Source: Escherichia phage arall
Length of the DNA stretch: 64,000 nt
Sequence record: MN850584.1
Direction: 5' to 3' (one strand)
Positions 1 to 33,912 of this stretch are shown here, piece by piece. The notes under the pieces were generated by a model. The model worked only from the letters and a program-made list of their open reading frames with translations, searched no databases and had not been told where the DNA came from. The stretch's first letter is position 1; each line of letters begins with the position of its first letter. The translations under genes were made by a program, and so were the position numbers.

Positions 1-784
1 AGTACGGCAGCACAGGAGAACAGATAATAGGAAGACCCTTTGCACCTGCTTCCAAAATCTTCAAATTGCTTTTACAGTTGTTGAAGTCATTATCTACTAG
101 GGGAGCAATTGCAATACTGTGACCGTCATACACAGACATATACTCACCTAAATTTTTAATAGCTGGTTTATACTGTGCATTTGGAATTTTACGTTTTATT
201 TTAACCCACTCCGCAGTAGTTAGATACTGACTATTATTTCCAACAGGTGCAGAAGGATACACTTCATACCCTGCAATTGTCAATAGTGTATCATCAAATG
301 TATTAGCTACAAGAGATAAATCAGGCTCATGGCTTGCTCCTCCAGCCCAGATAATAGGTGTGTCAGAACTACGGTCTTTTGTCAAAGTAAATTGACCTTC
401 GTCGTAAGGTAGTGCGTTTCTAATAACGACAACATTACGATTTAAATGACGAATTTTGTAAGCTAGGTATTCTGTTGTTACAGTAACCACATCTGCTAAC
501 TTAATCATCTCTACAATAGTCTTTGAGTGATTAGTAAATACGCCAGCCATATAATGTTCAGGATTAAGCGAATAAAAATCATCTAAATCAACAATAATCT
601 TAACACCTTGTGCCTTCAGGCGTTTAACTTCGTCTGATCCACGAGAATACACTCTATTAAAAACTAAAACGTCTTTCTTAGGTTTAAACGTATTTCCAGC
701 AAATGGCATTACAATACGATGGTAATCACAACCACTGCCTAACTTATTATCACACTTAAGTACAGGAGTATTAGGATTTACCAT
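1..784 (-). CDS. Glycosyltransferase-like protein, N-terminal part (gene runs off window start)
   Basis: Open minus-strand frame from ATG at 784-782 to position 1, translated by eye; segment KILEAGAKGLPIICS resembles the GT-B family 1/4 EAxAxGxPVI motif. Not in ORF track because no stop lies in window. Confidence 0.4.
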   Translation of the reverse strand, partial: MVNPNTPVLKCDNKLGSGCDYHRIVMPFAGNTFKPKKDVLVFNRVYSRGSDEVKRLKAQGVKIIVDLDDFYSLNPEHYMAGVFTNHSKTIVEMIKLADVVTVTTEYLAYKIRHLNRNVVVIRNALPYDEGQFTLTKDRSSDTPIIWAGGASHEPDLSLVANTFDDTLLTIAGYEVYPSAPVGNNSQYLTTAEWVKIKRKIPNAQYKPAIKNLGEYMSVYDGHSIAIAPLVDNDFNNCKSNLKILEAGAKGLPIICSPVLPY

Positions 785-1457
785 ATTTTTGAGCCTCCTC
801 ATAAGAGATAAAAGTTTTACCATTGCGAAGATCCTCCAGTGATTGTTTATATTGTTCCCAGTTTACACCAATCCCCTGTTCTTTCTCTTCTTTTGACAGA
901 TTCGCAAAAGGTAAAGGATTATCTCCAAACACATCGTCAGGATGGATAAACGCCATAATTCGAATAGGACATGGTACACCGAGAATGCCTCGGTTCAAAC
1001 CTGCCAGTGGAACGCGCTGAATCCACTCTGCATCTTCATATCCATAACCGTGGGTGTATGAGCGGAAATAGCCAGCTTTCTCAATAACTGCACGGGAATA
1101 CATACCAAACTGGCACATACCTAGTTCCCAAATAACCACCTCCCCTTCAATACCTTTTACTTTATCTTTAAAGTATTCAGGCATACCAAAGAAATCCCAA
1201 CCATTTTCCTTTGCCTGTTTTACAAAATATGTTTCCCACCCTGGAACAACAGGATAGCAATCATCATCAAAAATAAACCAGTAGTCATACCCTTCATCAT
1301 AAAACTTTTTCATCAGTTCATTACGGGCATATGCAACACCTTTTCGTTCACGATCATACTGTACAACAAAAGTAGCATTAGGATCAGTCACAAGATAATC
1401 TTTAAGAGGACGCTTACCTACAGTAATAACACCAACACCAATTTTTGTATTTTCCAA
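771..1457 (-). CDS. GT-A fold glycosyltransferase-like protein
   Basis: 228 aa ORF; FIFDDDC (DxD) and YGYEDAEW motifs typical of GT-A enzymes; TTG start preceded by AAGGAG. Confidence 0.55.
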   Translation of the reverse strand: MENTKIGVGVITVGKRPLKDYLVTDPNATFVVQYDRERKGVAYARNELMKKFYDEGYDYWFIFDDDCYPVVPGWETYFVKQAKENGWDFFGMPEYFKDKVKGIEGEVVIWELGMCQFGMYSRAVIEKAGYFRSYTHGYGYEDAEWIQRVPLAGLNRGILGVPCPIRIMAFIHPDDVFGDNPLPFANLSKEEKEQGIGVNWEQYKQSLEDLRNGKTFISYEEAQKYGKS

Positions 1458-2778: not shown

Positions 2779-3288
2779 TTAGCGATAGAATTGATGTTCT
2801 TTGTAGCGGTACACTAGAACCATATCTTTTTCCCAGTGTGCTCTTATTGTAGATTTTTTAAAGTATAATGCTCCTTTTGTAATATCTAATGCAATTCGTA
2901 ATTCTGGAAAATGGTTATCGAGATAAAGTAGACGTTCTGCTATAGCTTTAGCGTCTTTCCACTTATCGTGTTCCATAACGTTGAATGTCTTTGTGTAAGA
3001 GAATTGTCCTTTCTGAAACAAAACTTCTTTTATAGTATCAGGGAAATATGAATCTTTAGCCCTATTCAATACTACATTACCAACAGCAGACATACCGCGC
3101 TTTCCTTGATTACGACTTTCTGCATAGATTGCACAAGCTAATAGATTTTCTTTACTATCACGCTTTGTACACTTGTGAACTACTTTAGCAGTTTTTACGT
3201 TTGCAGCTTCGGCTTGCGCCACAACAGGTGTAAATGTAAAAGCAGTTAAGGATAGTAACGCAATTGCGACAAAGGTTTTTATTGACAA
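2779..3288 (-). CDS. Secreted SleB-like cell wall hydrolase
   Basis: N-terminal signal peptide (ALLSLTAFTFTPVVAQA); ACAIYAESRNQ...VGNVVLNRAKD...QKGQFS matches cell-wall hydrolase (Hydrolase_2/SleB) signature. Confidence 0.7.
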   Translation of the reverse strand: MSIKTFVAIALLSLTAFTFTPVVAQAEAANVKTAKVVHKCTKRDSKENLLACAIYAESRNQGKRGMSAVGNVVLNRAKDSYFPDTIKEVLFQKGQFSYTKTFNVMEHDKWKDAKAIAERLLYLDNHFPELRIALDITKGALYFKKSTIRAHWEKDMVLVYRYKEHQFYR

Positions 3289-4035: not shown

Positions 4036-4632
4036 TTACTCGAACCAATCGTCGCCAGCGCCAAACGCTTTAACTACATCATAAATGTCAAGTCCAGCTT
4101 TACCTACACCATATGCTTTCAGTTTCCATTCACTATCTTCCCGCACCAGGGAGGCAACGTGGCAAATGGTATTACCTGCAAGTTCTGGAGCCAAGAAGTC
4201 AAAATCCAGCAGTTCAACGTTACGTTCATCATCGAAGATTTTAAGGAAACCTTCGGTAGCGTGACCAAGGCGTTTCTTACCCGTTTCGTCATCAATAGTA
4301 ATTACGAATGCAATTTCCTGTGCTTCAGCAGAGATATTATCCAGTGTAACATCAATCTGCTCCATTTGTCCTACACCGTCACGAACATCTTCACCTGCAA
4401 AAGTAGAACGTTCAGGGTCAAATTTCTGTGCGTAGCATACCAGGTGGCGAGGAGACAACAGTTCCGGCAGACCAGATGCATTGTGTCGGCAAATCAGAGC
4501 ACTAACATCCAGATCCAGTTTTTCGTTAGATTTCCAAGAGAATTCCAGACGAATGCGTTTCAGTGCTGGTGCAATCTTTTTCAGAGAAACTTTTTCGCTA
4601 GAACCTTTTTTCAGGGAAATTTTCTGAGTCAT
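4036..4632 (-). CDS. TerD-domain protein (tellurite resistance TerD/TerE/KlaB family)
   Basis: ISLKKG...VSLKK N-terminus, DLDVSA, AFVITIDD and SEWKLKAYGVGKAGL segments align by eye with E. coli TerD. Confidence 0.8.
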   Translation of the reverse strand: MTQKISLKKGSSEKVSLKKIAPALKRIRLEFSWKSNEKLDLDVSALICRHNASGLPELLSPRHLVCYAQKFDPERSTFAGEDVRDGVGQMEQIDVTLDNISAEAQEIAFVITIDDETGKKRLGHATEGFLKIFDDERNVELLDFDFLAPELAGNTICHVASLVREDSEWKLKAYGVGKAGLDIYDVVKAFGAGDDWFE

Positions 4633-4704: not shown

Positions 4705-5499
4705 TTACGCTTTTGCTCCGAATTTTTTAACCCACTCGCCAAACTCTTCGGATAGCAGTTTATCGTAAAGTTCTTCGTCAGACAAGGACAAATCTGCAAT
4801 ACCGATAAAGTCAACGTTATCGTATTCTTTTGCCAAGTCTTTCAGGAATTTAAAGTTTGCATTACCTACACCAACCATAAACCAGTAAACAGGAGTGTTG
4901 CGGTGTTTGTTCAGCAAACTACGTACTGCTGAAGTATCCATGTTCTCCCCGTCAGTTTGGAAGAAAATCATTGCAGGAGTACGATCAACTTGTGCATCAG
5001 TATCTACAACCTGTTCTACAACAGTACGTGTAACTTCTACAAGTTCTTTTTTACCAGTTAGTTTAGCAAGGAAACCCTTAGCCGGAACTTCTTCATACTC
5101 AACGACTTCGCGTGTAATATTTTTCATAGGTACACTACCGAAGTATGTATCATAGATCTCTTGCATTACTGGAGCATAAGCTGTACCACCATTGATGCAA
5201 ACGTTAGACATACAAGAGCCGACATAATCATCATATACATCAGCCGTAGCAGGAGGCAGTTCAAAAGAAGAACTATTGAAAGCCCACATGTCAATCTGTG
5301 CATTATCATCAAACTTCATACCAAACGGCAGCAGCTTACCTACAAAATCACTAACAGTGCCATCACGATACAGCTCACACATACTACCCGAAATATCTAA
5401 GGCGCTACCGACACGAAGAACAACATCGTTAATCTTTTTCTTACGCAGAGATACGGTAAGAGTTTCTTGACGTTTTTTAAGACTGATTTTATTGGACAT
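4705..5499 (-). CDS. vWA-domain protein (TerY/TerF-like)
   Basis: MIDAS-like LDISGSM motif; TerD-like ISLKK...VSLRKK leader; adjacent to TerD gene. Confidence 0.6.
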   Translation of the reverse strand: MSNKISLKKRQETLTVSLRKKKINDVVLRVGSALDISGSMCELYRDGTVSDFVGKLLPFGMKFDDNAQIDMWAFNSSSFELPPATADVYDDYVGSCMSNVCINGGTAYAPVMQEIYDTYFGSVPMKNITREVVEYEEVPAKGFLAKLTGKKELVEVTRTVVEQVVDTDAQVDRTPAMIFFQTDGENMDTSAVRSLLNKHRNTPVYWFMVGVGNANFKFLKDLAKEYDNVDFIGIADLSLSDEELYDKLLSEEFGEWVKKFGAKA

Positions 5500-6526: not shown

Positions 6527-6759
6527 TACACATTCTCCTCTTTTACCAATTCCATCGTTGAATTGTCAAAACCATCTTTAGAAGAATAGGTATAGACAGA
6601 ACGTAGTTCTCGCAGGACAGTGAATACATTAGGATCATCTAACCAAGCATCCTGGAGGAGAACATAACGATCTTCATTGTCATACTGAACAGCAATCATA
6701 GAACCAGACAGTTTGTAAATTTTAATATTCATAATATATTTCTCCTTAAAGTAGACCAC
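6526..6759 (-). CDS. Hypothetical protein
   Basis: 77 aa ORF in block. Confidence 0.4.
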   Translation of the reverse strand: MVYFKEKYIMNIKIYKLSGSMIAVQYDNEDRYVLLQDAWLDDPNVFTVLRELRSVYTYSSKDGFDNSTMELVKEENV

Positions 6760-7849
6760 GTTTAACAGTTTGAATCATACCATCTTCAAGAGATTGCACT
6801 TCTTGAATGTAATCAATACGAGCAGCACGGGCTTCAGTGTTGATTCGGTTAGTTTCTTCCAACATTTTAACTAAGTTTTCTTGATCACGACGCAATGTTT
6901 CAATATCCAATACTTGACGATTAGCAAGTTGTGTAGCTTCAATCTGGTTTTGTGCAGCCAGATCACTACCCATTGCAATAGCAGCATTAAATTCATTCAG
7001 TACGTTGTTCTGTGTATCGGCTGCTTTCTTCTGGCGTAGACTTTCAATATACATAGAAAAGTTTGCAGAGTAAGCAGGAATAACATTATTCACAATATTA
7101 CGGGCTGATCGCATCAAACTTGCAGATACTTTCTGCATACTTTGTACACGTGGCCCCATCTGAACACATAGTAAGCGTAGGGCTTTCAGGTCTGCAATAC
7201 GAATTTCAAGCAGATCCATAGTATCACGAGTACGTTGACGCTCTTCTACCTCATTTTCAGGTAGTGTATTAAGGCGAATTTCTTCTTTTTCATAAGTAGC
7301 TGTTAGAAGCTCTATATCCCTGTTTAAGCTAAGGGCATATTTTGCAATAGCCTCTTCTAAACGTTGCAGATATCGTAAAGAATCTTCTTCTTTTTTCAAG
7401 TCTGTTTGGAGTGTCTTTACCAAACCTTCAATACGGTTATTGATGGTGTCAAATTCTCCAAACAAATCTTCTTTCATACCTAAAACTTTCTTAACTAGTT
7501 TACCTAAACCTTTAGATTGTTTAATAGAGTTAGGATCAAGTTGCTTTGCTTGCTTAATAAGTGCAGTTAAACGTTCACTCATTTCATCTCCCTGAGATGA
7601 ACGCTGGTGTTTAAGCACTTCAGCATTAAGGTTACGAAGAGTAAGTCCTGCATCAGCACCAACCTGTTCAATCTCTTCACGAGACATTGGAGGCAGCATT
7701 TGTACAGGGCGTGCAACAGCAGGGGCATATACAGGGCTTGCATCCATAGCACTTGGAGCAAACAAAGACTTACTTTTTTCTGTTGTTGCCGTGAATACAC
7801 TCATTTCAGACGGTTTGCTTTTTACGGCACTGATAAAAGGACTGGACAT
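6746..7849 (-). CDS. TelA/KlaA-like toxic-anion-resistance protein (tentative)
   Basis: 367 aa, strongly coiled-coil, size and context match TelA, which pairs with TerD-like KlaB in kilA-type operons; assignment is by context and composition. Confidence 0.4.
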   Translation of the reverse strand: MSSPFISAVKSKPSEMSVFTATTEKSKSLFAPSAMDASPVYAPAVARPVQMLPPMSREEIEQVGADAGLTLRNLNAEVLKHQRSSQGDEMSERLTALIKQAKQLDPNSIKQSKGLGKLVKKVLGMKEDLFGEFDTINNRIEGLVKTLQTDLKKEEDSLRYLQRLEEAIAKYALSLNRDIELLTATYEKEEIRLNTLPENEVEERQRTRDTMDLLEIRIADLKALRLLCVQMGPRVQSMQKVSASLMRSARNIVNNVIPAYSANFSMYIESLRQKKAADTQNNVLNEFNAAIAMGSDLAAQNQIEATQLANRQVLDIETLRRDQENLVKMLEETNRINTEARAARIDYIQEVQSLEDGMIQTVKRGLL

Positions 7850-9588: not shown

Positions 9589-9628
9589 CAGATCACCTCA
9601 ACAAAGCCCCCCGAAGGGGCTTAATGAA

Positions 9629-10606
9629 TTAAGCAACAGTCTGGTCTTCTTTTTCAGGGAAGATTAAACTTGCAAGAACACCCAGCCCAAGAGTACCTAA
9701 CACAATATACATACTGATCGTCGGGTCAATGTGTGCTGGCAGGAAACTCATTTTTGCGTGCAGAGTTTCTGCAAACGGATGATACATCAGTTTTACACCA
9801 ACAAATACCAGGACTACGATAACTGCTTTCTCCAGATGAACCAAATACTTCAGTGCAACACTAAGAACAAAGAACAGAGCACGTAAACCTAAGATTGCAC
9901 AGAGCATCGAAGAGAACACCAGCAGAGGTTCTTGTGTCACTGCAATTACTGCTGGAACAGAGTCTACTGCAAAGATTACGTCAACCATTTCCATTACAAA
10001 CACACAAACCAGAGCCGGAGTTGCTACACGAACACCATTTTTTATTGTGAAGAACTTCTCACCATTCATCTGATCAGATACAGGGAACAGCTTACGAACA
10101 ATGCGAGTAGCCCAGTGTTTAGAGTAATCAACTTCTGCATCATCATCCCCAGCGAATACCATTTTAGCCGCACAGAAAAGGATGACAGCACCGAAGAAGA
10201 TATTAACATACCAGCCCAAACTCAACAAGTAAGTACCTACTGCTACAAACACACCTCGGAAGACAATCGCACCTGCAATACCCCAAAGTAGAATTTTGTG
10301 CTGCAAGTGTGTGCTTTTAATACCAAAACTTGCGAAGACTGCCACAAATACTACTAAGTTATCTACAGAAAGAGATTTCTCCAACACATACCCACTCAAG
10401 AACAAGCTCGCAAAATCAGCACCGTGTTGGAAGTATACAAAACCATAGTAGGCTAATGATACCCCAATCCAGAAAATTGACCAGCCAATTGCAGATTTAA
10501 ATGAAATTTCTTTGTTTTCTCTGTGTCCAAAGAAGTCAATACAAATCGACAAGACTAAAATACCCACTAAAACAACCACATCAATAATTGGGAAACCCAG
10601 TTGCAT
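9629..10606 (-). CDS. TerC-family integral membrane protein
   Basis: Multi-pass membrane protein with LSVDNLVVF TerC signature. Confidence 0.8.
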   Translation of the reverse strand: MQLGFPIIDVVVLVGILVLSICIDFFGHRENKEISFKSAIGWSIFWIGVSLAYYGFVYFQHGADFASLFLSGYVLEKSLSVDNLVVFVAVFASFGIKSTHLQHKILLWGIAGAIVFRGVFVAVGTYLLSLGWYVNIFFGAVILFCAAKMVFAGDDDAEVDYSKHWATRIVRKLFPVSDQMNGEKFFTIKNGVRVATPALVCVFVMEMVDVIFAVDSVPAVIAVTQEPLLVFSSMLCAILGLRALFFVLSVALKYLVHLEKAVIVVLVFVGVKLMYHPFAETLHAKMSFLPAHIDPTISMYIVLGTLGLGVLASLIFPEKEDQTVA

Positions 10607-10683
10607 TCTTTTCTCCTCTTTAATGCGGAGGACAATCCTCCGCTCTATGTCTTATACTATAAACTGTTTTTAAAGAAAGTCAA

Positions 10684-10932
10684 CTAGTTCAGTTCTGTAA
10701 TTTTAAGTTTATCTTCTTTGTTAATGATAGGGAAAGCTACAGCATCACCTACGTCATCAATAAAGCAAATAGCAAGACCACCTTCCACTTTGCTAATCTG
10801 ACCATTAAAGGCGTGATACGGGGCAGGAACTTGATCTCCATCTTCAAGGAGAATAGCCTCGTAAACCTTGCCGATAGTACAATCACGAGTGTTTCTAAAT
10901 TTTTCAAGCACTTCAACATTTACTTTACGCAT
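10684..10932 (-). CDS. Hypothetical protein
   Basis: 82 aa ORF in block. Confidence 0.45.
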   Translation of the reverse strand: MRKVNVEVLEKFRNTRDCTIGKVYEAILLEDGDQVPAPYHAFNGQISKVEGGLAICFIDDVGDAVAFPIINKEDKLKITELN

Positions 10933-10946
10933 ATAAAAATCCTCTC

Positions 10947-11153
10947 TTATTTGTTAGATTGAAAGATACCACGGAGTACCGCAAGAATGAACGTCACACA
11001 GACTACACTCCAAAACGTTACAGGAACATGATGCCAGTCTAAGCCGATAATGTCAATCATATAGTTGTATGCTAAAAGCAGTAGCCAACTAGGGATTAAC
11101 ACAATCAAAAACACAACAATAAAACAACCTAATACTGCTAAAACACCTGCCAT
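10947..11153 (-). CDS. Small membrane protein
   Basis: 68 aa, two hydrophobic segments. Confidence 0.45.
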   Translation of the reverse strand: MAGVLAVLGCFIVVFLIVLIPSWLLLLAYNYMIDIIGLDWHHVPVTFWSVVCVTFILAVLRGIFQSNK

Positions 11154-11162
11154 ACTTTCTCC

Positions 11163-11879
11163 TTATTTCAGTTTGTAAACAATTACATTTAAACCTTTGT
11201 TTACTAGAGTTTCTTCGATCATAAGTTTTACAATATTCCAAGAACCTCCAGCCAAACCACAACCAAGCATTGGTAAACCTACAATTTTACCGCCTGAAGA
11301 TACAACATCGTCTCCCATACTATCTAACGCATTGTAGATAGCTTCATAATTCAGGTCACGCTTACCTTCCTCACGACGACTATAACCATATTGTCCATAT
11401 AAATTATAAATTGTCAAATTGTTTTCTGTATACTTAGTAAACGTACCTAATTTTTTATAATCACCACGTTTAGTGGCACAATCTGCTTTAAACGCACCAG
11501 GCCACTTGCTTTTAATTTTTGGTGCAATACCACTACCCATAGTGCAAAAACAGTTACAGCAGTGTGCTATAGCGTCTATATCGCCTCTCTCGGCTGCTGC
11601 TAAAAGATCACCGTATACCTCAATGATACCTGCTAGATAACTTGTTACAATTTCATCTTCCCAGTACATTTGCTCTACACCACCGATCAGTGCAAAGTTT
11701 TGTGTAAGGCGATCATCAATATAGTTAAGACCTGAAACATACACAGCATATTCATCCTGTGCTGTAATACCTTGTACACGAATTCTTAAGACACCATCTT
11801 TATCTGTTGCTACACGCCCAAAATCTTTTTCTGTAATATTGGTGATAGGATCTCCGAAAGTCATTACTTTATTAGACAT
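11163..11879 (-). CDS. Macro-domain protein (putative ADP-ribose binding/hydrolase)
   Basis: ATG at 11879 overlapping upstream stop; GDIDAIAHCCNC...GSGIA...VGLPMLGCGLAGG follows macro-domain motif order. Confidence 0.5.
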   Translation of the reverse strand: MSNKVMTFGDPITNITEKDFGRVATDKDGVLRIRVQGITAQDEYAVYVSGLNYIDDRLTQNFALIGGVEQMYWEDEIVTSYLAGIIEVYGDLLAAAERGDIDAIAHCCNCFCTMGSGIAPKIKSKWPGAFKADCATKRGDYKKLGTFTKYTENNLTIYNLYGQYGYSRREEGKRDLNYEAIYNALDSMGDDVVSSGGKIVGLPMLGCGLAGGSWNIVKLMIEETLVNKGLNVIVYKLK

Positions 11880-12729
11880 AATAATCCCCTTTAACATTAG
11901 ATTTGTTGATAATGTTGCTTTCAAAAAATTGACGTAGGAAATCAAAGTTCTCTTTATATTTTTCAATGTTATTGTAGCCTTCTGCAAGGCAACCAAAGAA
12001 CAGTTGTTCTACATAATACAAAGGAAGCTGTGAAAGTGCAATTTTAAAATCAACTTCGCTTTGACTCATTAGATACTTAATAGGACGAACCAAACATTTA
12101 GCATCAGTTTCTTGCTTAATCATTTTAATAAAAGCTGCCAGGTTATTGATATAGTTGAAGTTAAGTGCAGCTTCGGTATTGGCTTCTGTACCTTCATACT
12201 TTGCAAAGTACAGGAAAAACGTATCGTTTTCAACACCTTCTTTGTCTAAAATTTCAATAAGTTTTTCTTCGTGCGTTCCTGTAATATTAACATCATCAAT
12301 GAAAATCAGAGTTTTATTACCCCAGAAATCACGATTGATAGAGAAAGTGTCACCATCGATCAAAGCCTTACGATCTTCTTTGCTAAGAAATCCATAATCA
12401 TTGATATAGCTCACTTTACGATGAACGATATCCCACTCCACTGCTTTACCTCCTTTGATAGAGATTAGGTAGTTGAGGTGATCTACAAAATGTTCAGATA
12501 ACACTGTAGCTGCATTTTTCACATAGTTATATGGAGATGGAATAACAACAAAACTTTCATTTACCAGTCGTTCTTCATACTTGGAAAAGAAACTTTCAGC
12601 CAGAATGCGTCCCATTCTTTTTGCTGCTTGGTTACTACCAAACTTTAGTTTGGAATAATCTGCAATGTTAAATTTTGCTTCCTTCAGGTTAGTAAAAGTA
12701 TTAGCAAAATGTTGAATTTGATTACGCAT
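11872..12729 (-). CDS. Type I phosphoribosyltransferase-fold protein
   Basis: KTLIFIDDVNITGTHEE matches the PRPP-binding loop of type I PRTases; unusual N- and C-terminal extensions. Confidence 0.55.
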   Translation of the reverse strand: MRNQIQHFANTFTNLKEAKFNIADYSKLKFGSNQAAKRMGRILAESFFSKYEERLVNESFVVIPSPYNYVKNAATVLSEHFVDHLNYLISIKGGKAVEWDIVHRKVSYINDYGFLSKEDRKALIDGDTFSINRDFWGNKTLIFIDDVNITGTHEEKLIEILDKEGVENDTFFLYFAKYEGTEANTEAALNFNYINNLAAFIKMIKQETDAKCLVRPIKYLMSQSEVDFKIALSQLPLYYVEQLFFGCLAEGYNNIEKYKENFDFLRQFFESNIINKSNVKGDYYV

Positions 12730-13378
12730 TAATAAGTTCCTCTTTTTTAAGTTTAGCCAACAAGTCTTCTGGATTAATAATATGACAGAACTTCATCCCT
12801 ATGTCAACAGCTTTTCCATCATAAATCAAACTATCCCCAACGTGTAAAATCTCCTCTGGTGCGAGATCAAACGTTACCATTTCATCAAAAGAGAGTTTAA
12901 AAAACCTAGGATCTGGTTTACACAAGCAAAACTCATCAGAAAAATGCATAAAGTCAAATGGTAATTTTGTCAAGCCAGAATATACAGCTAAGAAACTACC
13001 AGGTACAAAATTGGTATTGCTTTTAATACTCAAAGAATAGGTTGAACTTAGCTCTTCCAACTTCTTGCAAAGTTCAGGGTTTAATATTGGAGGATGTTTT
13101 ATAAACATTGCTAAACAGTCTCTTTTTAACCCATCTACTTTATCAAGATCAATGTTCAAATGAGCAGAAAGTGTTTCCCAAGCATTTCTAGATGTTCCAC
13201 AAATGCCTTTTTCTGCTCTTAAATCCAGGAGAGTTTTTACTTCTTTATATACGGTAGCTGCTTCTACCTCAGAACAAGAGGCATACTCGGCAATAACCTT
13301 GTTGCGTTCTTCTGCATACAAAGGATTAGCAGTAATAAGAGTATTCCATACATCAAAAGAAATATGCTTAACAGTCAT
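12722..13378 (-). CDS. HAD-superfamily hydrolase-like protein
   Basis: ISFDVWNTL (motif I-like), KPDP (motif III), HVGDSLIYDGKA (motif IV); ATG at 13378; overlaps downstream gene. Confidence 0.55.
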   Translation of the reverse strand: MTVKHISFDVWNTLITANPLYAEERNKVIAEYASCSEVEAATVYKEVKTLLDLRAEKGICGTSRNAWETLSAHLNIDLDKVDGLKRDCLAMFIKHPPILNPELCKKLEELSSTYSLSIKSNTNFVPGSFLAVYSGLTKLPFDFMHFSDEFCLCKPDPRFFKLSFDEMVTFDLAPEEILHVGDSLIYDGKAVDIGMKFCHIINPEDLLAKLKKEELINA

Positions 13379-13547
13379 TTTTAATCCTCCGTCCAAAAGA
13401 ATATCATCTGCTTAATTTTATTGATCTCTTGATGTAGTAACTTTCCAGCATGTGATTGATCTTTAATATTGACAGCAAGAATTTCAAGCTCCGTTAGTTT
13501 TTCTTGGATAGCTTTATATTCATCATCTGTAAGCATTTTCTTCCCCT

Positions 13548-13751
13548 TTAGAATGGTAATCTTTGTATGTCACTTATCCCCACACCAAGAAGTCTAGCAA
13601 TATCCTTATCTAAAAGCAACTCTTTTTGTTCTAAAATGTTAATCAGATCTCCTAATACTTCTTTAATGTCACGATCATTTTTAGCAACGTGACCACCTGC
13701 GGTATCAACTTTATCTTTAAAAACAAAATAATGATCCATAATACCCTCCAT
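13548..13751 (-). CDS. Hypothetical protein
   Basis: 67 aa ORF. Confidence 0.4.
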   Translation of the reverse strand: MEGIMDHYFVFKDKVDTAGGHVAKNDRDIKEVLGDLINILEQKELLLDKDIARLLGVGISDIQRLPF

Positions 13752-13785
13752 ATAAATAAAGGAGGCTTTCGCCTCCTTTTATCAC

Positions 13786-14946
13786 TTAGTAAGAACGACC
13801 ACCAAACACATACTCTGTGTAGTTTTTACGTTCTTTGTTTTTAATAACAACTTCAATGTTGTTACCTTTATCATCGGTGAACATAAAGTGATAGCCGTCA
13901 CCACCCATTGTACGAATGTGTTTTTCATCATACGTTAGCAAGATACGGTCTACACCCCAGTAGTAGTCACCTTCTTCATCTTTATCTTCTACGGTAACAA
14001 TCCCTTCCATTTCAGGAAGATGCTCTTCACCTAGTTTATGGTCTACAGCTACAACATAACGATTACCGCTAAACAAACCTTGTGCTGTCATACCGTCAAT
14101 ATCGGTATCTGACGAAACATCTCCTGTACGATCTACACCGTTAACTTTCAGAAGTTTAACCTCTTTTGCAGCATAGCGGTGTTCAGTAATACTGATACCC
14201 ATCAATGCAAGTGCATCAGAGAATTTGTCATTAGGGTAACGGTTAAGTTCTTCTACTAATGACTGAACAATATCAAAGTTCAAATCCACGGAGAGATTAT
14301 AAAGCGTTTCAAAATCTGGTAAGAAGGCTTTGTTCTCCAGATTTTTAGCCAGATAATCATCCATAGTAGCTTTAGGTAGTTTCTTATAGCTAAAACTGTA
14401 GAAAATACGGCTAGGACGATTACGCAAAAATTCTGATACATAACCATCATTTTTAGTCAATACAAACAGTTTGTCGTAGCCACCAACACCATCCAGCAGG
14501 GTAAGCAAACCATCTTGTGCATCTTTTTCAGCATACAGTTTATCAAATTCATCGATCATAATCATCACAGGTTGTGTGATTTTAGACATAAAATTGATAA
14601 AGCCTTCACCATTAAAAGCACTACCGATAGAAATAGTAGGAATACCCATTTCACGAAGAGCAGAAGACAGCATTTTAGCTTGCAAAGTTTTACCGCTACC
14701 TTTCGTACCTTCAAGGAGAACACCTGTGTTTTTACCTTTGCGGCTAAGGAACGTTTTGATAATACGTTCTGATTTATCATCAGTATCACCGTATGTTACT
14801 GAAGGGACTTCCATATCGTTTTTAGGATACAGGAAGAACTCACCACTTTGAGTAACACCTACACCAAAAGTTCCTGCTGGAATTTCTTCAATATCTGTAC
14901 CAGATTTCTGACGCAGAAAGATTTGATTGCCGAATACTGTAAACAT
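13786..14946 (-). CDS. AAA+/P-loop ATPase-like protein (paralog of 30965-32092)
   Basis: Walker A GTKGSGKT and Walker B MIMIDEFD; clearly alignable with the plus-strand ORF at 30965-32092. Confidence 0.6.
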   Translation of the reverse strand: MFTVFGNQIFLRQKSGTDIEEIPAGTFGVGVTQSGEFFLYPKNDMEVPSVTYGDTDDKSERIIKTFLSRKGKNTGVLLEGTKGSGKTLQAKMLSSALREMGIPTISIGSAFNGEGFINFMSKITQPVMIMIDEFDKLYAEKDAQDGLLTLLDGVGGYDKLFVLTKNDGYVSEFLRNRPSRIFYSFSYKKLPKATMDDYLAKNLENKAFLPDFETLYNLSVDLNFDIVQSLVEELNRYPNDKFSDALALMGISITEHRYAAKEVKLLKVNGVDRTGDVSSDTDIDGMTAQGLFSGNRYVVAVDHKLGEEHLPEMEGIVTVEDKDEEGDYYWGVDRILLTYDEKHIRTMGGDGYHFMFTDDKGNNIEVVIKNKERKNYTEYVFGGRSY

Positions 14947-30964: not shown

Positions 30965-32092
30965 ATGAAATACACGATTTATGGTGATATTGTAAGTGTA
31001 AATAAAGATATGGGCGTGGAATCTAACTATCTTCCACCTGGATTCTATACTGTTAGTCGTGATCCCCTTGGCAATTACTTTTTAAGCCGTGGTAATCTAA
31101 CAGGTGTACCGGATGTTCTGTATGGTGAAACAGAAAAACGAGCAAATCACGTTATTCGTACATTCCATCGCCGGAGTGCACAAGGTAAAAATACAGGTTT
31201 GCTCCTGACAGGAACTAAGGGCAGTGGTAAAACTATGTTAGCCAAACTCATTAGTCGTGACCTTGTAGAAGAAGGTATTCCAACTATTATGGTTACTCAA
31301 GCCTACAGTGATGCTAATTTCATTGAACTTATTAGCAAGATCACAGACAAAGCAGTCATTATTTTTGACGAGTTTGATAAAGTATATGAGAAGAAACAAG
31401 ATCAAGAAGCACTTCTCACTTTGTTAGATGGTACTGGCAGTGGTAATAAACTGTTTATTCTGACTAAAAACAGTGGTTTTATCTCTGAATTCTTTTTAAA
31501 TCGTCCTAGTCGTGTGTTTTATAATTTTAATTATGATAAAATCTCACTAGAAACTATGATTGACTATTTAGATAAAAACCTGGATAACAAAGCACACTTT
31601 GATAATTTCCAAAGACTTTGGGATGTAAGTTTAGAGTTGTCCTTTGATGTGATCCAAGGTATAGTAGAAGAACTTAATTTCTATCCTGATTTATCCTTTA
31701 AAGAATGCATCTCTATGATGGGCGTTTCTTTGGGTGGTGGTAATAAATGGGATATCAGCAGCGTTGTTATTAATGGAAAACTTCAGAAAGTTAGCTGGGT
31801 ATCTAGTTGGCATAACTTCACACCTGCAATCTTTTTAGGTGGTTCGTGCACACTAGACGTGTACTTGTCATCTCCAAGTGATGCAGACTCTAAAGAAGCC
31901 CTTGCTAATAGCTCTTACGTGGTTTTTGATGATGAAGGCGATGCTCGAATTCCATTGAATGCGACAAAAATGAAAGCAGATCTTATTACAGGCGGTAAAA
32001 TCGTTGTGTTTAGTGATGATCCAGAAGATTCTTTCCGTATTGTTCTGGAACCAACTATCACCAATGGTGCAACTTTGGCAAGTGTGTTTTAA
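30965..32092 (+). CDS. AAA+/P-loop ATPase-like protein (paralog of 13786-14946)
   Basis: Walker A GTKGSGKT, Walker B IIFDEFD; collinear similarity to minus-strand paralog. Confidence 0.6.
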   Translation: MKYTIYGDIVSVNKDMGVESNYLPPGFYTVSRDPLGNYFLSRGNLTGVPDVLYGETEKRANHVIRTFHRRSAQGKNTGLLLTGTKGSGKTMLAKLISRDLVEEGIPTIMVTQAYSDANFIELISKITDKAVIIFDEFDKVYEKKQDQEALLTLLDGTGSGNKLFILTKNSGFISEFFLNRPSRVFYNFNYDKISLETMIDYLDKNLDNKAHFDNFQRLWDVSLELSFDVIQGIVEELNFYPDLSFKECISMMGVSLGGGNKWDISSVVINGKLQKVSWVSSWHNFTPAIFLGGSCTLDVYLSSPSDADSKEALANSSYVVFDDEGDARIPLNATKMKADLITGGKIVVFSDDPEDSFRIVLEPTITNGATLASVF

Positions 32093-32166: not shown

Positions 32167-33360
32167 ATGGCAGCACCAAAATCATGGGAACAATATAAAG
32201 AAGAGTGTCAACCTATTGCGAATAATAAAGGGATTGAGATCCTAGGATATGTTGAACCGTTTATAGGTTGTGATACGAAAATGATTCTACGCTGTAGGCA
32301 GGAACATGAATGGAAGACTTGTAGTATTAGTAATTTCAAGCACGGTAACAGTTGTCCTATCTGTTCTGGTAAGAAGCCGTTAACATGGGAAACAGAATTG
32401 CCGATCTTGGAAGAGATAGCACAGAAGAAGGGGTATCAGGTGTTAGGGTACGTTGGAGAATGGAAAGGGAATAAAACAAAACTTGATTTGTTGTGCCATT
32501 GTGGGAATAGATGGCAAAGTACAGCAATTCATCAATTTAAAGGCGGTCGAGGTTGTCCACAATGTAGGGGGGAGAATACAAGGAAGGCACTAACAATGTC
32601 CGACGATCAACATATTGCAGATTTCTTTTCTACAGGGAAATTTAAGGAAGGCACTATCTTCACTAACACAGGAACACGGAGTAAAGGATGCAGGCATAGT
32701 ATCTGGATGGTTGAATGTCCTGTTTGCTCTCATGATGAATATGTTCAAGCAGGTGTTTGTGATGGTAAATTTTACTCTGAAGGAAATAACCTTAAACGAG
32801 GGTGCATTCCGTGTCGTTGTGGGAACTATCGGTATACAGAAGACCAGATCACCTATAGGGTAAAAAAGGAAGTAGAAGGGCAAGGGTATGTCTGGGTAGG
32901 TTGGATCGGTAAACCGTCTAGAAGTCACGGTAAGTTTAAATATCTTTGTCTTGTGCATGGGGAACAGACAGGGAGGGCTAATAACTTATTAAGCCTCGGT
33001 CAAGGTTGTCCACAGTGTGCTGGTCATAATCAACAGCAATTATATATTAATATTGTTAAAGATAATGATATTATAGTGGCTCTTAAGTTTGGTATAGCTA
33101 AAGATAGTGATAGGCGATTAAATAGTCAAAATAGTTGTAATATGTTTTTTATGGAGCGTATTTGTTTATATGATTTTAGCACAGTGAAACAATGTAAGGC
33201 TGCTGAAAGAGCTATAAAGAAAAAATTAAAAACTGGTATTTTAACGGAAAGAGAGTTGAAAGACGGTTATACAGAAACAGTAAGTGTTTCTGATTTGGAA
33301 AATCTTCAAGAAATTATTACACAACATGGTGGCAAATTAGTATATAATAAGGAGATGTAA
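32167..33360 (+). CDS. Zinc-ribbon repeat protein with C-terminal T5orf172/GIY-YIG-like domain (putative free-standing homing endonuclease)
   Basis: Four repeated modules each ending in a CPxC zinc ribbon (CPICSG, GCPQCRG, CPVCSH, GCPQCAG); C-terminal YINIVKDNDIIVALKFGIAKD...RR resembles T5orf172 domain. Confidence 0.45.
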   Translation: MAAPKSWEQYKEECQPIANNKGIEILGYVEPFIGCDTKMILRCRQEHEWKTCSISNFKHGNSCPICSGKKPLTWETELPILEEIAQKKGYQVLGYVGEWKGNKTKLDLLCHCGNRWQSTAIHQFKGGRGCPQCRGENTRKALTMSDDQHIADFFSTGKFKEGTIFTNTGTRSKGCRHSIWMVECPVCSHDEYVQAGVCDGKFYSEGNNLKRGCIPCRCGNYRYTEDQITYRVKKEVEGQGYVWVGWIGKPSRSHGKFKYLCLVHGEQTGRANNLLSLGQGCPQCAGHNQQQLYINIVKDNDIIVALKFGIAKDSDRRLNSQNSCNMFFMERICLYDFSTVKQCKAAERAIKKKLKTGILTERELKDGYTETVSVSDLENLQEIITQHGGKLVYNKEM

Positions 33361-33912
33361 ATGCGGATTACTGATAAGTATGTGTTCTTCTTTTCGGCAA
33401 AAGATGAATTTAGCAACTGGTATCTATCATCTTTTATTGAACCTTTAGCTCCCAAGTATAATAATTCTATCACAAGTTCTGTCGAATTTACTTGTGTGGA
33501 ACAATATATGATGTGGAGAAAAGCATGTTTGTTTTATGATTACAATATTGCATCTTCTATTTTAACCGGAGATCTAAGATATACAGGAGAAAAAGAACAA
33601 GCATATTATAAGCGACTAGGTAGATTAGTTAAAGATTATGATGAAGACACCTGGACTTCTTTACGGGAGAAGATTGTCAAACGTGGTTTGTATCTTAAAT
33701 ACACACAAAATGAAGATCTCAAAAATAAACTTATTGCTTACGCAGATAAGGAGTTCGTAGAGGCAAGCCCTTATGATTCTATTTATGGTATCAAAATGGG
33801 GATGTGGGATCGGGACGTGGAAAATAAGGATTGTTGGAAAGGACAAAATCTTTTAGGAAAATGGCATACAGACCTTGCTGTTTATCTAAAAACACAATCT
33901 GATATTTCCTGA
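33361..33912 (+). CDS. NADAR (DUF1768, YbiA-like) domain protein
   Basis: FFFS..DEFSNWY...EQYMMWRKA...EASPYDSIYGIKMG follows the NADAR pattern. Confidence 0.7.
   Translation: MRITDKYVFFFSAKDEFSNWYLSSFIEPLAPKYNNSITSSVEFTCVEQYMMWRKACLFYDYNIASSILTGDLRYTGEKEQAYYKRLGRLVKDYDEDTWTSLREKIVKRGLYLKYTQNEDLKNKLIAYADKEFVEASPYDSIYGIKMGMWDRDVENKDCWKGQNLLGKWHTDLAVYLKTQSDIS

What the first reader, a model, noticed from the sequence alone, without database searches (positions are those of the whole stretch)
11163..13378. Overlapping operon of phosphoribosyltransferase-fold, HAD-hydrolase and macro-domain proteins
Three genes with overlapping stop/start codons encode a type I PRTase fold with unusual extensions, a HAD-like phosphatase and a macro domain. 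The same window also encodes a NADAR protein (33361-33912) and a Sir2-like protein without zinc module (57793-58605). NADAR, macro and Sir2 domains are all linked to ADP-ribose or NAD+ chemistry, so this may be a phage pathway for NAD+/ADP-ribose turnover, reversal of ADP-ribosylation, or counter-defence against NAD+-depleting immunity. The exact reaction cannot be read from sequence.
Basis: partly seen in the sequence, partly recalled or inferred. Interest (0 to 1): 0.7.

Follow-up and report, generated by a model that had tools for sequence, protein, structure and literature searches.

The report
Ter-linked PRTase–HAD pair plus macrodomain
Three overlapping genes in a phi92-like E. coli phage are real, but they look like a two-gene phosphoribosyl-transfer/hydrolase cassette that travels with Ter (tellurite-resistance-type) stress genes, followed by a common phage ADP-ribose-removing enzyme, not a single NAD+ pathway, and the cassette's product is still unknown.

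Summary
Three minus-strand genes sit at exactly 11163-13378, joined by 8-nt stop/start overlaps: a HAD-fold hydrolase, a ComF-like type I PRTase (Pfam PF15610, 1e-41) and a macrodomain protein. The window is a Justusliebigvirus (phi92-like) coliphage; the genes are Phi92 gp187/186/185.

The NAD+/ADP-ribose pathway reading is only partly supported. HAD+PRTase is an obligate pair, adjacent in 38 of 38 fetched loci. Its most frequent neighbours are Ter genes, and here TerC, TelA, vWA-TerF and TerD lie just downstream. This matches the computationally predicted "nucleoside-like metabolite" arm of Ter systems.

The macrodomain is adjacent only in Stephanstirmvirinae. Its type occurs in about 2,900 phage records, nearly all without the cassette. 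It resembles SCO6735, which removes thymidine-linked ADP-ribose from DNA.

The distant NADAR is 182/183 identical to Bas61's copy of AdfN-Bas60, a proven anti-DarT1 factor, so it needs no link to this operon.

Most likely mechanism, inferred: PRPP-dependent phosphoribosyl transfer to an unknown acceptor, then HAD hydrolysis. The macrodomain probably acts separately as counter-defence.

Two oddities remain. The HAD has an invariant Trp where the general acid/base Asp should be, and the macro protein carries an unexplained 85-aa N-domain.

Verdict: new member of a predicted, biochemically untested kind; moderate interest.

The parts
13758..13779 (-). Terminator-like hairpin upstream of the block, between the AAA ATPase gene and the first small ORF
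   Evidence: 9-bp stem, 5 GC pairs. Phage Paula has terminators annotated at the equivalent place.
13548..13751 (-). 67-aa ORF, first gene of the block; annotated 'putative transcriptional regulator' in phage Paula
   Evidence: No Pfam hit.
13381..13536 (-). 51-aa ORF whose stop lies 2 nt before the HAD start
   Evidence: No Pfam hit.
12722..13378 (-). HAD-fold hydrolase (C1-capped, subfamily IA-like) and obligate partner of the PRTase. Motif I is SFDVWNTL, with an invariant Trp at the Asp+2 position.
11872..12729 (-). ComF-like type I phosphoribosyltransferase (PF15610) with a C-terminal helical domain. The PRPP loop IFIDDVNITGTH is intact.
11163..11879 (-). N-domain (about residues 1-85, unknown) fused to an ALC1-like/SCO6735-type macrodomain (about residues 88-238)
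   Evidence: Macro; DarG models at about 1e-13 but far below cut-off. SCO6735 and BT1257 at 1e-15; TARG1 K84 aligns to Gln and D125 to Ala; the N-domain is separate or absent in sister genera.
10947..11153 (-). 68-aa predicted two-helix membrane protein, conserved directly after the macro gene in sister genera
   Evidence: sequence; 53-59% identical copies at the same position in L026 and L028..
10684..10932 (-). 82-aa ORF, last gene of the block
   Evidence: No Pfam hit.
10625..10643 (.). GC-rich hairpin between the block and terC. A promoter-like site at 10683-10656 (minus strand) precedes terC.
9629..10606 (-). TerC-family integral membrane protein
   Evidence: PF03741, 1.3e-38.
6746..7849 (-). 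TelA (toxic anion resistance) family protein
   Evidence: PF05816, 7.9e-34.
4705..5499 (-). vWA domain of the TerF-C-terminal type
   Evidence: PF10138, 1.2e-38.
4036..4632 (-). TerD-domain protein
   Evidence: PF02342, 5.1e-28. TerD homologues occur in only 143 of 50,697 phage records, with organism tallies that nearly match those of the PRTase.

Best explanation
The locus is a composite of two functional units that one phage subfamily has joined into a single translationally coupled block.

Unit 1 is the HAD hydrolase plus the ComF-like PRTase. It is an obligate two-gene cassette that moves among phages, Rhizobiaceae plasmids and some Bacteroidota, and is preferentially linked to Ter stress-response genes (TerD, TerC, TelA, vWA-TerF). 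This phage carries such a set directly downstream. The inferred chemistry is that the PRTase uses PRPP to put a 5-phosphoribosyl group on an acceptor that is still unknown: a base-like small molecule, or possibly a hydroxyl of an envelope component. The HAD partner then removes the 5'-phosphate, or alternatively hydrolyses the released pyrophosphate. The result would be a riboside (a 'nucleoside-like metabolite') that serves the membrane-associated Ter apparatus, perhaps in superinfection exclusion or envelope-stress management during infection.

Unit 2 is the macrodomain protein. It is a widespread stand-alone phage gene of the SCO6735/TARG1/DarG class. It most likely removes ADP-ribose from nucleic acid (thymidine-linked, DarT2-type) or from protein, as counter-defence. 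That would complement the phage's NADAR, whose orthologue AdfN-Bas60 removes guanine-linked ADP-ribose.

What is shown: gene structure, folds, conserved catalytic motifs and the conserved gene contexts. What is inferred: every reaction, the acceptor, and the biological role.
For: Cassette as a unit:
- A HAD homologue lies immediately upstream of the PRTase, on the same strand, in 38 of 38 loci from phages, IMG/VR contigs, plasmids and MAGs.
- In 21 non-redundant loci the next most frequent neighbour families are TerD (11), TerC (10), vWA (8) and TelA (7). Macro is found in 5.
- In L035 and L036 the pair sits inside a Ter operon: TelA-HAD-PRT-vWA-TerD, and TerC-TerD-vWA-HAD-PRT.
- On a Hymenobacter plasmid the pair is transcribed divergently from three TerD genes, two vWA genes, a PP2C phosphatase and a kinase.

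Genome level:
- TerD occurs in 143 and the PRTase in 156 of 50,697 phage records. The organism tallies nearly coincide. CcrColossus, Brevundimonas phages and XaC1 carry both genes far apart.
- The window itself has TerC, TelA, vWA-TerF and TerD downstream.

Literature: Aravind-lab papers describe PRTase plus HAD as the signal-biosynthesis arm of Ter systems and note Ter systems in phages (PMC7824862 section 22; PMC5512222).

Catalytic competence:
- The PRPP loop DD...TG.H and the flexible-loop residues are invariant.
- The fold is type I PRTase, closest to ComFC.
- The HAD keeps the nucleophile Asp, motif II Ser, motif III Lys and the motif IV Asp residues.

Precedents for coupling a HAD to a PRPP-dependent transferase:
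- ShosT, a fusion of a HAD-like pyrophosphatase with a PRTase (PMC11961720).

Macro as an independent unit:
- 2,909 phage records carry this macro type.
- It is stand-alone in Phapecoctavirus-like L028, and separated from the PRTase by an extra ORF in L026.
- Gln sits at the TARG1 K84 / DarG K80 position, as in SCO6735. SCO6735 cleaves dT-ADPr DNA and rescues cells from DarT (PMC9411070).
- The NADAR is 182/183 identical to the Bas61 copy of AdfN-Bas60, which cannot reverse thymidine ADP-ribosylation (PMC11825919).
Against: - No reaction has been demonstrated for any PF15610 protein. The closest structural relative, ComFC, has no known transferase product, and no acceptor has been found for ShosT.
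- Ter genes were not detected within 10 kb in about half of the lineages. No TerD hit was found among Rhizobium phages, which account for 11 PRTase records (tblastn at 1e-5 is insensitive). The cassette can therefore exist without Ter.
- Within the window, terC is separated from the block by a hairpin and has its own promoter-like site. The link to Ter is one of neighbourhood, not of a proven operon.
- The HAD lacks the Asp+2 general acid/base; Trp is invariant there. A simple phosphomonoesterase role is not guaranteed.
- The macro gene is translationally coupled to the PRTase here and stays next to the cassette in three genera. This could reflect a real functional link.
- SCO6735 Lys34, which is important for DNA activity, is Ser in the phage protein.
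Confidence: 0.55

Rival explanations
1. One reading: PRTase, HAD and macrodomain, together with NADAR and Sir2, form one phage pathway that rebuilds or turns over NAD+/ADP-ribose or counters NAD+-depleting immunity.
For: - The three genes are joined by 8-nt overlaps.
- The cassette-macro adjacency is kept in three Stephanstirmvirinae genera.
- A macro gene lies within 8 kb of the cassette in two unrelated jumbo-phage loci, L005 and L027.
- In Rhizobium phage Y65 the cassette is followed by a Nudix gene.
- The NADAR and SIR2 domains are real.
Against: - The macro gene is absent from 16 of 21 representative cassette loci.
- 2,909 phage records have this macro type, against 156 with the PRTase.
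- The PRTase is a ComF-like type I fold. It is not the type II NadV/NAMPT/PncB class, and no such Pfam or NCBIfam hit appears at E<=1.
- NADAR and Sir2 lie 20 and 45 kb away in other blocks. The NADAR already has a sufficient, experimentally shown role (PMC11825919).
- Macrodomains occur in 41% of myoviruses (PMC9503650), so finding one in this phage is expected.
Confidence: 0.12
2. A ShosT-like metabolic weapon. The PRTase consumes PRPP, transferring it to an abundant metabolite or to water. The HAD hydrolyses pyrophosphate or the product to drive the reaction. This perturbs host nucleotide metabolism for host take-over or to exclude competing phages. No specific signalling product is involved.
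For: - ShosT has the same architecture, a HAD-like pyrophosphatase N-terminal to a PRTase, and its toxicity needs the DD motif and PRPP binding (PMC11961720, PMC12961424).
- A missing general acid is easier to tolerate when the leaving group is good, as with phosphate released from pyrophosphate (inference).
Against: - No PADLOC model, which would include any ShosT model in that library, matches either protein at E<=0.01.
- The similarity to ShosT is weaker than to ComFC or HGPRT.
- This model does not explain the recurrent Ter linkage.
- The HAD-family pyrophosphatase BT2127 keeps its Asp+2 (my own recollection, not checked here).
Confidence: 0.13
3. Envelope or glycan ribofuranosylation. As with CriT/CrpP in capsule and O-antigen synthesis, the PRTase transfers ribofuranose-5-phosphate from PRPP to a hydroxyl of a host envelope glycan or lipid, and the HAD removes the 5-phosphate. 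This would alter the cell surface, for example to block superinfection.
For: - CrpP likewise lacks the second Asp of motif I (PMC10299916).
- The Ter partners are membrane-associated, and glycosyltransferase-like genes and a cell-wall hydrolase lie downstream in the window.
Against: - Neither protein has a membrane anchor, an SH3b-type polymer-binding module or a glycosyltransferase fusion.
- The cassette also occurs in loci without any glycan-synthesis genes.
Confidence: 0.08
4. A non-catalytic or DNA-directed ComFC-like role. The PRTase-fold protein binds single-stranded DNA, as ComFC does, and works with the macrodomain on modified DNA. PRPP would be at most a ligand.
For: - ComF-like motifs are shared in the PPi loop and the flexible loop (direct reading of the sequence against the ComF signature as I recall it; the ComF side was not checked here).
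- A macrodomain of a DNA-de-ADP-ribosylating class lies next to it (PMC9411070).
Against: - The NCBIfam ComF model scores 14.2 bits against a cut-off of 233.55.
- There is no N-terminal 4-Cys zinc finger: the protein has only two Cys, at positions 212 and 247 (sequence).
- The invariant partner is a HAD hydrolase, not a helicase or DprA.
- The macro gene is absent from most cassette loci.
Confidence: 0.05
5. An ordinary nucleotide-salvage enzyme (orotate phosphoribosyltransferase, as many GenBank records annotate it) with a nucleotidase.
For: GenBank product names read 'putative orotate phosphoribosyltransferase'. There is a weak local match of the PRPP loop to human OPRT, E 1.7.
Against: - No hit to PF00156 or to any salvage PRTase equivalog at E<=1.
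- The family profile finds no PDB PRTase below E 0.1.
- The protein has a distinct C-terminal domain and a Ter-linked context.
Confidence: 0.02

Closest known systems
Ter-system 'nucleoside-like metabolite' biosynthetic module (PRTases + HAD phosphoesterase), predicted by Anantharaman, Iyer & Aravind 2012 (not held in the library; known to me from the abstract and from citing papers PMC7824862 and PMC5512222)
   Same: The PRTase + HAD pair is physically linked to TerD, TerC, TelA and vWA-TerF genes, and it occurs on phages and plasmids. [quoted passage not shown]
   Different: That module is a computational prediction; no product or activity is known. Here it is a minimal two-gene form, with no ATP-grasp and no C-C lyase seen. 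It sits in a 146-kb virulent coliphage, with a macro gene appended. About half of the cassette lineages show no Ter gene within 10 kb.
ShosT toxin of the ShosTA defence system (PDB 8zvb; PMC11961720, PMC12961424)
   Same: A HAD-like hydrolase is placed N-terminal to a type I PRTase. The PRPP-binding DD motif is essential. The acceptor is unknown. It acts in phage-host conflict.
PRPP-dependent ribofuranosyltransferase + HAD phosphatase pairs (Bcs3 CriT/CrpP, PDB 8a0c; T. composti enzyme 7shg; PMC10299916)
   Same: Two-step logic: phosphoribosyl transfer from PRPP, then removal of the 5-phosphate by a HAD enzyme. That HAD enzyme lacks the second Asp of motif I. The HAD domains are structural hits of the phage HAD model.
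   Different: The transferase domains are not among the top structural matches of the phage PRTase. Those enzymes are fused multidomain glycan polymerases, and their acceptors are sugars.
ComFC (competence protein; H. pylori structure 7p0h)
   Different: No zinc finger and no ComFA or DprA partner. The NCBIfam ComF model scores far below its cut-off. The phage protein has an extra C-terminal helical domain of about 100 aa.
SCO6735 / BT1257 macrodomains (ALC1-like class), DarG2 and phage AdfM
   Same: The macro fold, with the His-x-x-Asn, Gln (in place of the catalytic Lys) and Gly-x-Gly features of SCO6735, and a long basic mobile loop. SCO6735 removes thymidine-linked ADP-ribose and rescues cells from DarT (PMC9411070). 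AdfM shows that phage macrodomains can be anti-DarT2 factors (PMC13309987).
   Different: The phage protein lacks DarG K80 / AdfM K78 and the DarT-binding C-domain. SCO6735 Lys34 is Ser. It carries an 85-aa N-domain of unknown function. Its activity is untested.
   Same: Phage-encoded PRPP/ribosyl-phosphate chemistry used in conflict with host immunity.
   Different: Those pathways use PRPP-synthetase-like and type II (NAMPT-like) enzymes. The window's PRTase is a ComF-like type I enzyme paired with a HAD, and no adenylyltransferase is present in the block.

Membership tests
Pfam PF15610 PRTase_3 (ComF-like PRTase) | Full-length match above the curated gathering score | tested here: met
   143.5 bits against 28.7, profile positions 14-264 of 264. 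All homologues listed are precomputed as PF15610.
Pfam PF15610 PRTase_3 (ComF-like PRTase) | Type I PRTase fold with an acidic-pair PRPP loop | tested here: met
Pfam PF15610 PRTase_3 (ComF-like PRTase) | PRPP-dependent transferase activity and identity of the acceptor | not testable with these tools
   Needs enzyme assays or metabolomics.
ComFC competence proteins | Match to the NCBIfam ComF model above its cut-off | tested here: not met
   TIGR00201: 14.2 bits against 233.55.
ComFC competence proteins | N-terminal four-cysteine zinc finger | tested here: not met
   The protein has only two Cys (C212, C247) and none in the N-terminal region (sequence).
Salvage PRTases (OPRT, HGPRT, APRT, UPRT, XPRT) | Match to PF00156 or to an NCBIfam equivalog | tested here: not met
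   No such hit at E<=1. The family profile against PDB gives a best E of 0.15, restricted to the PRPP loop.
NAD-salvage PRTases (NadV/NAMPT, PncB; NARP1 Namat/Adps) | Type II PRTase (TIM-barrel) or PRPP-synthetase-like architecture | tested here: not met
   The fold is type I, and no NAPRTase or NAMPT family hit appears at E<=1.
HAD-superfamily phosphatases | Motif I nucleophile Asp; motif II Ser/Thr; motif III Lys; motif IV acidic residues | tested here: met
HAD-superfamily phosphatases | Asp at nucleophile+2 as general acid/base (the DxD motif) | tested here: not met
   Trp11 is invariant, giving motif SFDVWNTL. The same motif is in PH0253. CrpP shows that a 5-phosphoribosyl phosphatase can lack this Asp (PMC10299916).
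Ter stress-response system (sensu Anantharaman et al. 2012) | TerD, TerC, TelA and vWA (TerF/TerY-type) genes present in the neighbourhood | tested here: met
   PF02342, PF03741, PF05816 and PF10138 all match at E<=1e-28 within 9 kb downstream on the same strand.
Ter stress-response system (sensu Anantharaman et al. 2012) | Association of PRTase+HAD with Ter genes recurs across unrelated replicons | tested here: met
   11 of 21 representative loci. The pair is embedded in Ter operons in L035 and L036. A Hymenobacter plasmid shows the link as well. Genome-level co-occurrence holds in the phage collection.
Ter stress-response system (sensu Anantharaman et al. 2012) | Tellurite, colicin or phage-resistance phenotype | not testable with these tools
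   Needs genetics.
SCO6735-type (ALC1-like) macrodomain hydrolases | Macro fold, with Gln replacing the TARG1 K84 / DarG K80 lysine, and His-x-x-Asn and Gly-x-Gly loops | tested here: met
   PF01661: 31.2 bits against 22. The alignments to 5e3b, 2fg1 and 4j5r show AHCCN, YGQYG and GCGLAGG. Residue roles are from PMC9411070.
SCO6735-type (ALC1-like) macrodomain hydrolases | Lys34 (DNA positioning) and hydrolysis of dT-linked ADP-ribose | tested here: inconclusive
   The position aligned with Lys34 is Ser. The mobile loop is long and basic (RREEGKR). Activity cannot be tested here.
DarG2 antitoxin / phage AdfM | Catalytic Lys (DarG K80, AdfM K78), and for DarG2 the DarT-binding C-terminal domain | tested here: not met
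   Gln sits at that position (via the TARG1 K84 equivalence stated in PMC9411070). The protein ends with the macro domain. NCBIfam DarG scores 48.9 bits against 250. The PADLOC DarG match covers only profile positions 6-144 of 329.
ShosT | Match to a defence-system profile, and fusion of hydrolase and PRTase in one protein | tested here: not met
   No PADLOC hit for the HAD or the PRTase at E<=0.01. They are two separate genes. All 120 listed family members are 267-297 aa single-domain proteins.

The most novel reading that the evidence does not exclude
The HAD-PRTase_3 cassette makes a so-far unknown riboside, or a ribosyl adduct on an envelope or nucleic-acid target. This would be the missing small-molecule arm of Ter systems. 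The phage would deploy it together with its own TerD, TerC, TelA and vWA proteins, for example for superinfection exclusion. In Stephanstirmvirinae the translationally coupled macrodomain would edit the same ribosyl chemistry rather than acting only against DarT-type toxins.
Probability: 0.2. Interest if true: 0.75.

Novelty: new member of a known kind. Interest (0 to 1): 0.42.

Why it matters
How Ter gene clusters work has been unclear for decades. They are widespread on virulence plasmids and islands and are linked to tellurite, colicin and phage resistance. Their predicted 'nucleoside-like metabolite' has never been identified.

This window shows the minimal two-gene form of that biosynthetic arm next to a compact Ter set, in a virulent coliphage. 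Near-identical relatives (BASEL phages Bas60-62) grow on E. coli K-12 and are available to laboratories. That makes the product, the acceptor and the phenotype directly testable.

Separately, the macro protein gives a concrete prediction. It may be a SCO6735-type anti-DarT2 factor complementing the proven anti-DarT1 NADAR of the same phage.

If neither prediction holds, the locus is just three annotated accessory genes.

Tried and rejected
- The look-up of encoding contigs failed on every attempt. Neighbourhoods of the roughly 500 metagenomic family members could therefore not be surveyed.
- The afdb50 library was unavailable.
- Anantharaman et al. 2012 (PMC4104200) is not held. Its content is cited from memory and from citing papers.

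Searches that found nothing:
- Literature search for PF15610, PRTase_3 or 'PRTase ComF-like' found no paper.
- The EVADES anti-defence catalogue preprint mentions none of these domains.
- The genome-contig scan found only 15 loci, mostly Rhizobiaceae, because it needs exact peptide patterns. Distant bacterial PF15610 members were not reached.

Ideas rejected or left unsupported:
- My by-eye guess that the C-terminal half of the 188-aa L026 ORF is MazG-like was not supported (no Pfam hit). Only its N-terminal 75 aa resemble the macro N-extension (E 6e-5).
- 'Ordinary OPRT' is rejected.
- DarG2 or AdfM membership of the macro protein is rejected because the catalytic Lys is missing.
- A dehalogenase-type, non-phosphoryl role for the HAD was considered because Asp+2 is absent and dehalogenases are structural neighbours. 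It is judged less likely because the Mg-binding motif IV (GDSxxxD) and motifs II and III are retained.
- Promoter and terminator scans found no more sites than the shuffled controls, so operon boundaries rest on two hairpins and on published annotation only.


Full report
**Identity of the window.** The region 9600-14000 is 98-99% identical to many Justusliebigvirus genomes: phi92-like E. coli myoviruses of about 146 kb, subfamily Stephanstirmvirinae. These include the BASEL phages EmilieFrey (Bas61), JohannJBalmer and PaulScherrer. The three genes correspond to Phi92 gp187, gp186 and gp185. GenBank annotates them variously as 'hydrolase/HAD-like', 'putative (orotate) phosphoribosyltransferase' and 'phosphatase/macrodomain protein'.

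**Observation.** On the minus strand, ORFs lie at 12722-13378 (218 aa), 11872-12729 (285 aa) and 11163-11879 (238 aa). The junctions are ATGCGTAA and ATGTCTAA, both 8-nt overlaps with Shine-Dalgarno-like purine runs. The first gene starts 2 nt after a 51-aa ORF and is preceded by GGAGGA.

Profile searches give the following.
- PRTase: PF15610 PRTase_3 'ComF-like' at 1.1e-41, over the full length of the model.
- Macro: PF01661 at 2.3e-7.
- HAD: PF00702 at 1.2e-5, which is 0.2 bits below the cut-off.
- PHROGs places each protein in a phage family: phrog_14393, phrog_13415 and phrog_335.

AF2 models are confident, with pLDDT 91 for the PRTase and 95 for the HAD.

**The PRTase.**
- At sequence level nothing in the PDB is significant, even with a family profile.
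- No salvage PRTase family or PF00156 hit appears at E<=1. The GenBank 'orotate PRTase' label is therefore unfounded.
- The PRPP loop (IFIDDVNITGTH) and the flexible-loop residues R104, Y108, D111 and R120 are invariant, even among members only about 30% identical. This argues for a working enzyme.
- The protein lacks the ComFC zinc finger, having only two Cys, both C-terminal. It carries a conserved C-terminal helical domain of about 100 aa.
- The family is small, with about 500 clusters at 90% identity among 5.8 billion sequences. The 120 best-scoring members listed are uniformly 267-297 aa. It is mostly viral or metagenomic, plus Rhizobiaceae plasmids and a few Bacteroidota.

**The HAD.**
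- The nucleophile Asp9, Ser120, Lys154, Asp182 and Asp187 are invariant.
- The position two residues after the nucleophile is normally the general acid/base Asp of phosphatases. Here it is an invariant Trp, giving motif SFDVWNTL.
- PH0253, an archaeal structural-genomics protein of unknown function, has the identical FDVWNTL motif. This is a clade feature, not an accident.
- The Bcs3 paper states that its HAD phosphatase CrpP removes the 5-phosphate after PRPP-dependent ribosyl transfer, and that it also conserves only the first Asp of the DxD motif (PMC10299916). A 5-phosphoribosyl phosphatase role therefore remains plausible despite the missing Asp.

**Context: the cassette.** I fetched 38 loci that carry a PRTase homologue. 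They came from isolated phages (Rhizobium, Caulobacter, Xanthomonas), IMG/VR contigs, Rhizobiaceae plasmids, a Hymenobacter plasmid and Bacteroidota MAGs. In all 38, a HAD homologue lies immediately upstream on the same strand, usually overlapping.

I then clustered all ORFs from 21 non-redundant loci. After the pair itself, the most widely shared families were TerD (11 loci), TerC (10), vWA (8) and TelA (7). The macro family was in 5.
- In L035 the gene order is TelA-HAD-PRT-vWA-TerD.
- In L036 it is TerC-TerD-vWA-HAD-PRT.
- On the Hymenobacter plasmid the pair is divergent from three TerD genes, two vWA genes, a PP2C phosphatase and a kinase.

In the window itself, TerC (9629-10606), TelA (6746-7849), vWA-TerF (4705-5499) and TerD (4036-4632) follow on the same strand.

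In the 50,697-record phage collection, TerD is found in 143 records and the PRTase in 156, with nearly the same organism tallies. CcrColossus, Brevundimonas phages and XaC1 have both genes, tens to hundreds of kb apart. No TerD hit was seen among Rhizobium phages, which account for 11 PRTase records.

This is the pattern the Aravind laboratory described computationally. They proposed PRTases plus a HAD phosphoesterase as the biosynthetic arm of Ter systems, and they also noted such systems in phages (PMC7824862 section 22; PMC5512222). The original 2012 paper is not held.

**Context: the macro gene.** It is adjacent to the cassette only in Stephanstirmvirinae.
- In a Phapecoctavirus-like contig (L028) it is a stand-alone 157-aa macro gene 10 nt after the PRTase stop codon.
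- In a Klebsiella-phage-like contig (L026) a 188-aa ORF intervenes. The first 75 residues of that ORF resemble the N-extension of the window protein (29% identity, E 6e-5).
- The window protein is therefore an N-domain/macro fusion specific to Justusliebigvirus; only 61 of the 2,909 records carrying this macro type cover at least 80% of the query.
- 41% of myoviruses encode a macro domain (PMC9503650).

The nearest solved relatives are SCO6735 and BT1257 (1e-15), then TARG1 (1e-10). TARG1 K84 (equivalent to DarG K80) aligns with Gln, and D125 with Ala, exactly as in SCO6735. SCO6735 uses that Gln, removes thymidine-linked ADP-ribose from ssDNA more efficiently than DarG, and rescues E. coli from DarT (PMC9411070).

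The phage protein keeps the His, Asn, Gln and Gly-x-Gly features and a long basic mobile loop. It has Ser at the Lys34 position. It fails the DarG2/AdfM membership test because it lacks the catalytic Lys and the C-terminal domain, and it scores far below the model cut-offs (PMC13309987).

**The other NAD-related genes.**
- The NADAR (33361-33912) is 182/183 identical to Bas61 gp107.
- Johannesman et al. showed that this protein (AdfN-Bas60, encoded by Bas60, Bas61 and Bas62) neutralises DarT1 and restores phage growth on DarTG1 hosts, but cannot reverse thymidine modification by DarT2 (PMC11825919).
- The SIR2 protein (57793-58605) sits near a C5 DNA methylase.
- Both genes are tens of kb away in other blocks. 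Neither needs the operon to be explained.

**Synthesis.** The best-supported reading is a composite. (i) A Ter-linked HAD+PRTase cassette that, by inference, performs PRPP-dependent phosphoribosyl transfer to an unknown acceptor, followed by HAD-catalysed hydrolysis. (ii) A common phage ADP-ribosyl hydrolase, probably a counter-defence enzyme and possibly the thymidine-specific complement of the NADAR.

Experimentally grounded analogues of step (i) exist. CriT/CrpP makes an O-ribofuranoside and then removes the 5-phosphate. ShosT is a fusion of a HAD-like pyrophosphatase with a PRTase, and its toxicity depends on PRPP (PMC11961720, PMC12961424). The phage proteins are not members of either family.

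Terminator-like hairpins at 13779-13758 and 10625-10643 bracket a seven-gene block: two small ORFs, HAD, PRTase, macro, a 68-aa membrane protein and an 82-aa ORF. terC has its own promoter-like site. These scans did not exceed chance overall.

**What remains unexplained.**
- The acceptor and the product of the PRTase.
- The role of the invariant Trp in the HAD.
- The macro N-domain.
- Why three Stephanstirmvirinae genera keep the macro gene glued to the cassette.
- What a virulent phage gains from a Ter set.

**Verdict.** The features are real. It is wrong in scope: the locus is not one NAD+ pathway, and the Ter context was missed. The locus is a new member of a computationally predicted but biochemically untested kind. 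It sits in an experimentally convenient phage. Interest is moderate.

Noticed in passing
window 33361-33912 (+), with neighbour 32167-33360 (+): The NADAR protein is 182/183 identical to Bas61 gp107. It is therefore the published anti-DarT1 factor AdfN-Bas60. The gene immediately upstream encodes a protein with CapR-homology repeats, a treble-clef zinc finger and a T5orf172 domain.
   Followed up: yes
window 57793-58605 (-) and 59937-60926 (-): The SIR2-family protein (PF02146, 1.3e-22) lies 1.3 kb from a C5 cytosine DNA methylase (PF00145, 1e-43). The two ORFs between them have no Pfam hit.
   Followed up: partly
window 771-1457 (-): This ORF is annotated as a glycosyltransferase in Bas61. 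It has a weak, sub-threshold match to PF20691, the TET-associated glycosyltransferase family linked to DNA base hypermodification (E 6.7e-5, 23.3 bits against 27.5).
   Followed up: no
window 13786-14946 (-) and 30965-32092 (+): There are two AAA/nSTAND-like ATPase genes of similar size (386 and 375 aa). The first lies directly upstream of the block and is conserved there in sister genera at 73-74% identity.
   Followed up: no
window 10947-11153 (-): A 68-aa protein with two predicted hydrophobic helices is conserved directly downstream of the macro gene in three Stephanstirmvirinae genera (53-59% identity). Its function is unknown.
   Followed up: partly
L026 4024-4590 (+): In a Klebsiella-phage-like relative, a separate 188-aa ORF sits between the PRTase and macro genes. 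Its first 75 aa are homologous to the N-extension of the window's macro protein, which suggests a deletion or fusion event in Justusliebigvirus. The remainder has no Pfam hit.
   Followed up: partly
PDB 2om6 (PH0253) compared with window 12722-13378: An archaeal structural-genomics HAD protein of unknown function shares the unusual motif I FDVWNTL (Trp in place of the general acid/base Asp). This points to a wider uncharacterised HAD clade.
   Followed up: partly
GenBank MG065645 and MG065650 ('Campylobacter phage A145 / B15'): These records carry PRTase and TerD genes that are 100% or 65-81% identical to those of E. coli Stephanstirmvirinae. The host label looks doubtful.
   Followed up: no
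L003 (Rhizobium phage RHph_Y65) 4070-6406 and 10186-11436: The HAD-PRTase cassette sits next to a Nudix gene and about 5 kb from a PurZ-like adenylosuccinate synthetase, a marker of aminoadenine genomes. No TerD hit was found among Rhizobium phages.
   Followed up: no
window 2779-3288 (-): A cell-wall hydrolase (PF07486 Hydrolase_2, 8.6e-20) lies just downstream of the Ter genes on the same strand.
   Followed up: no
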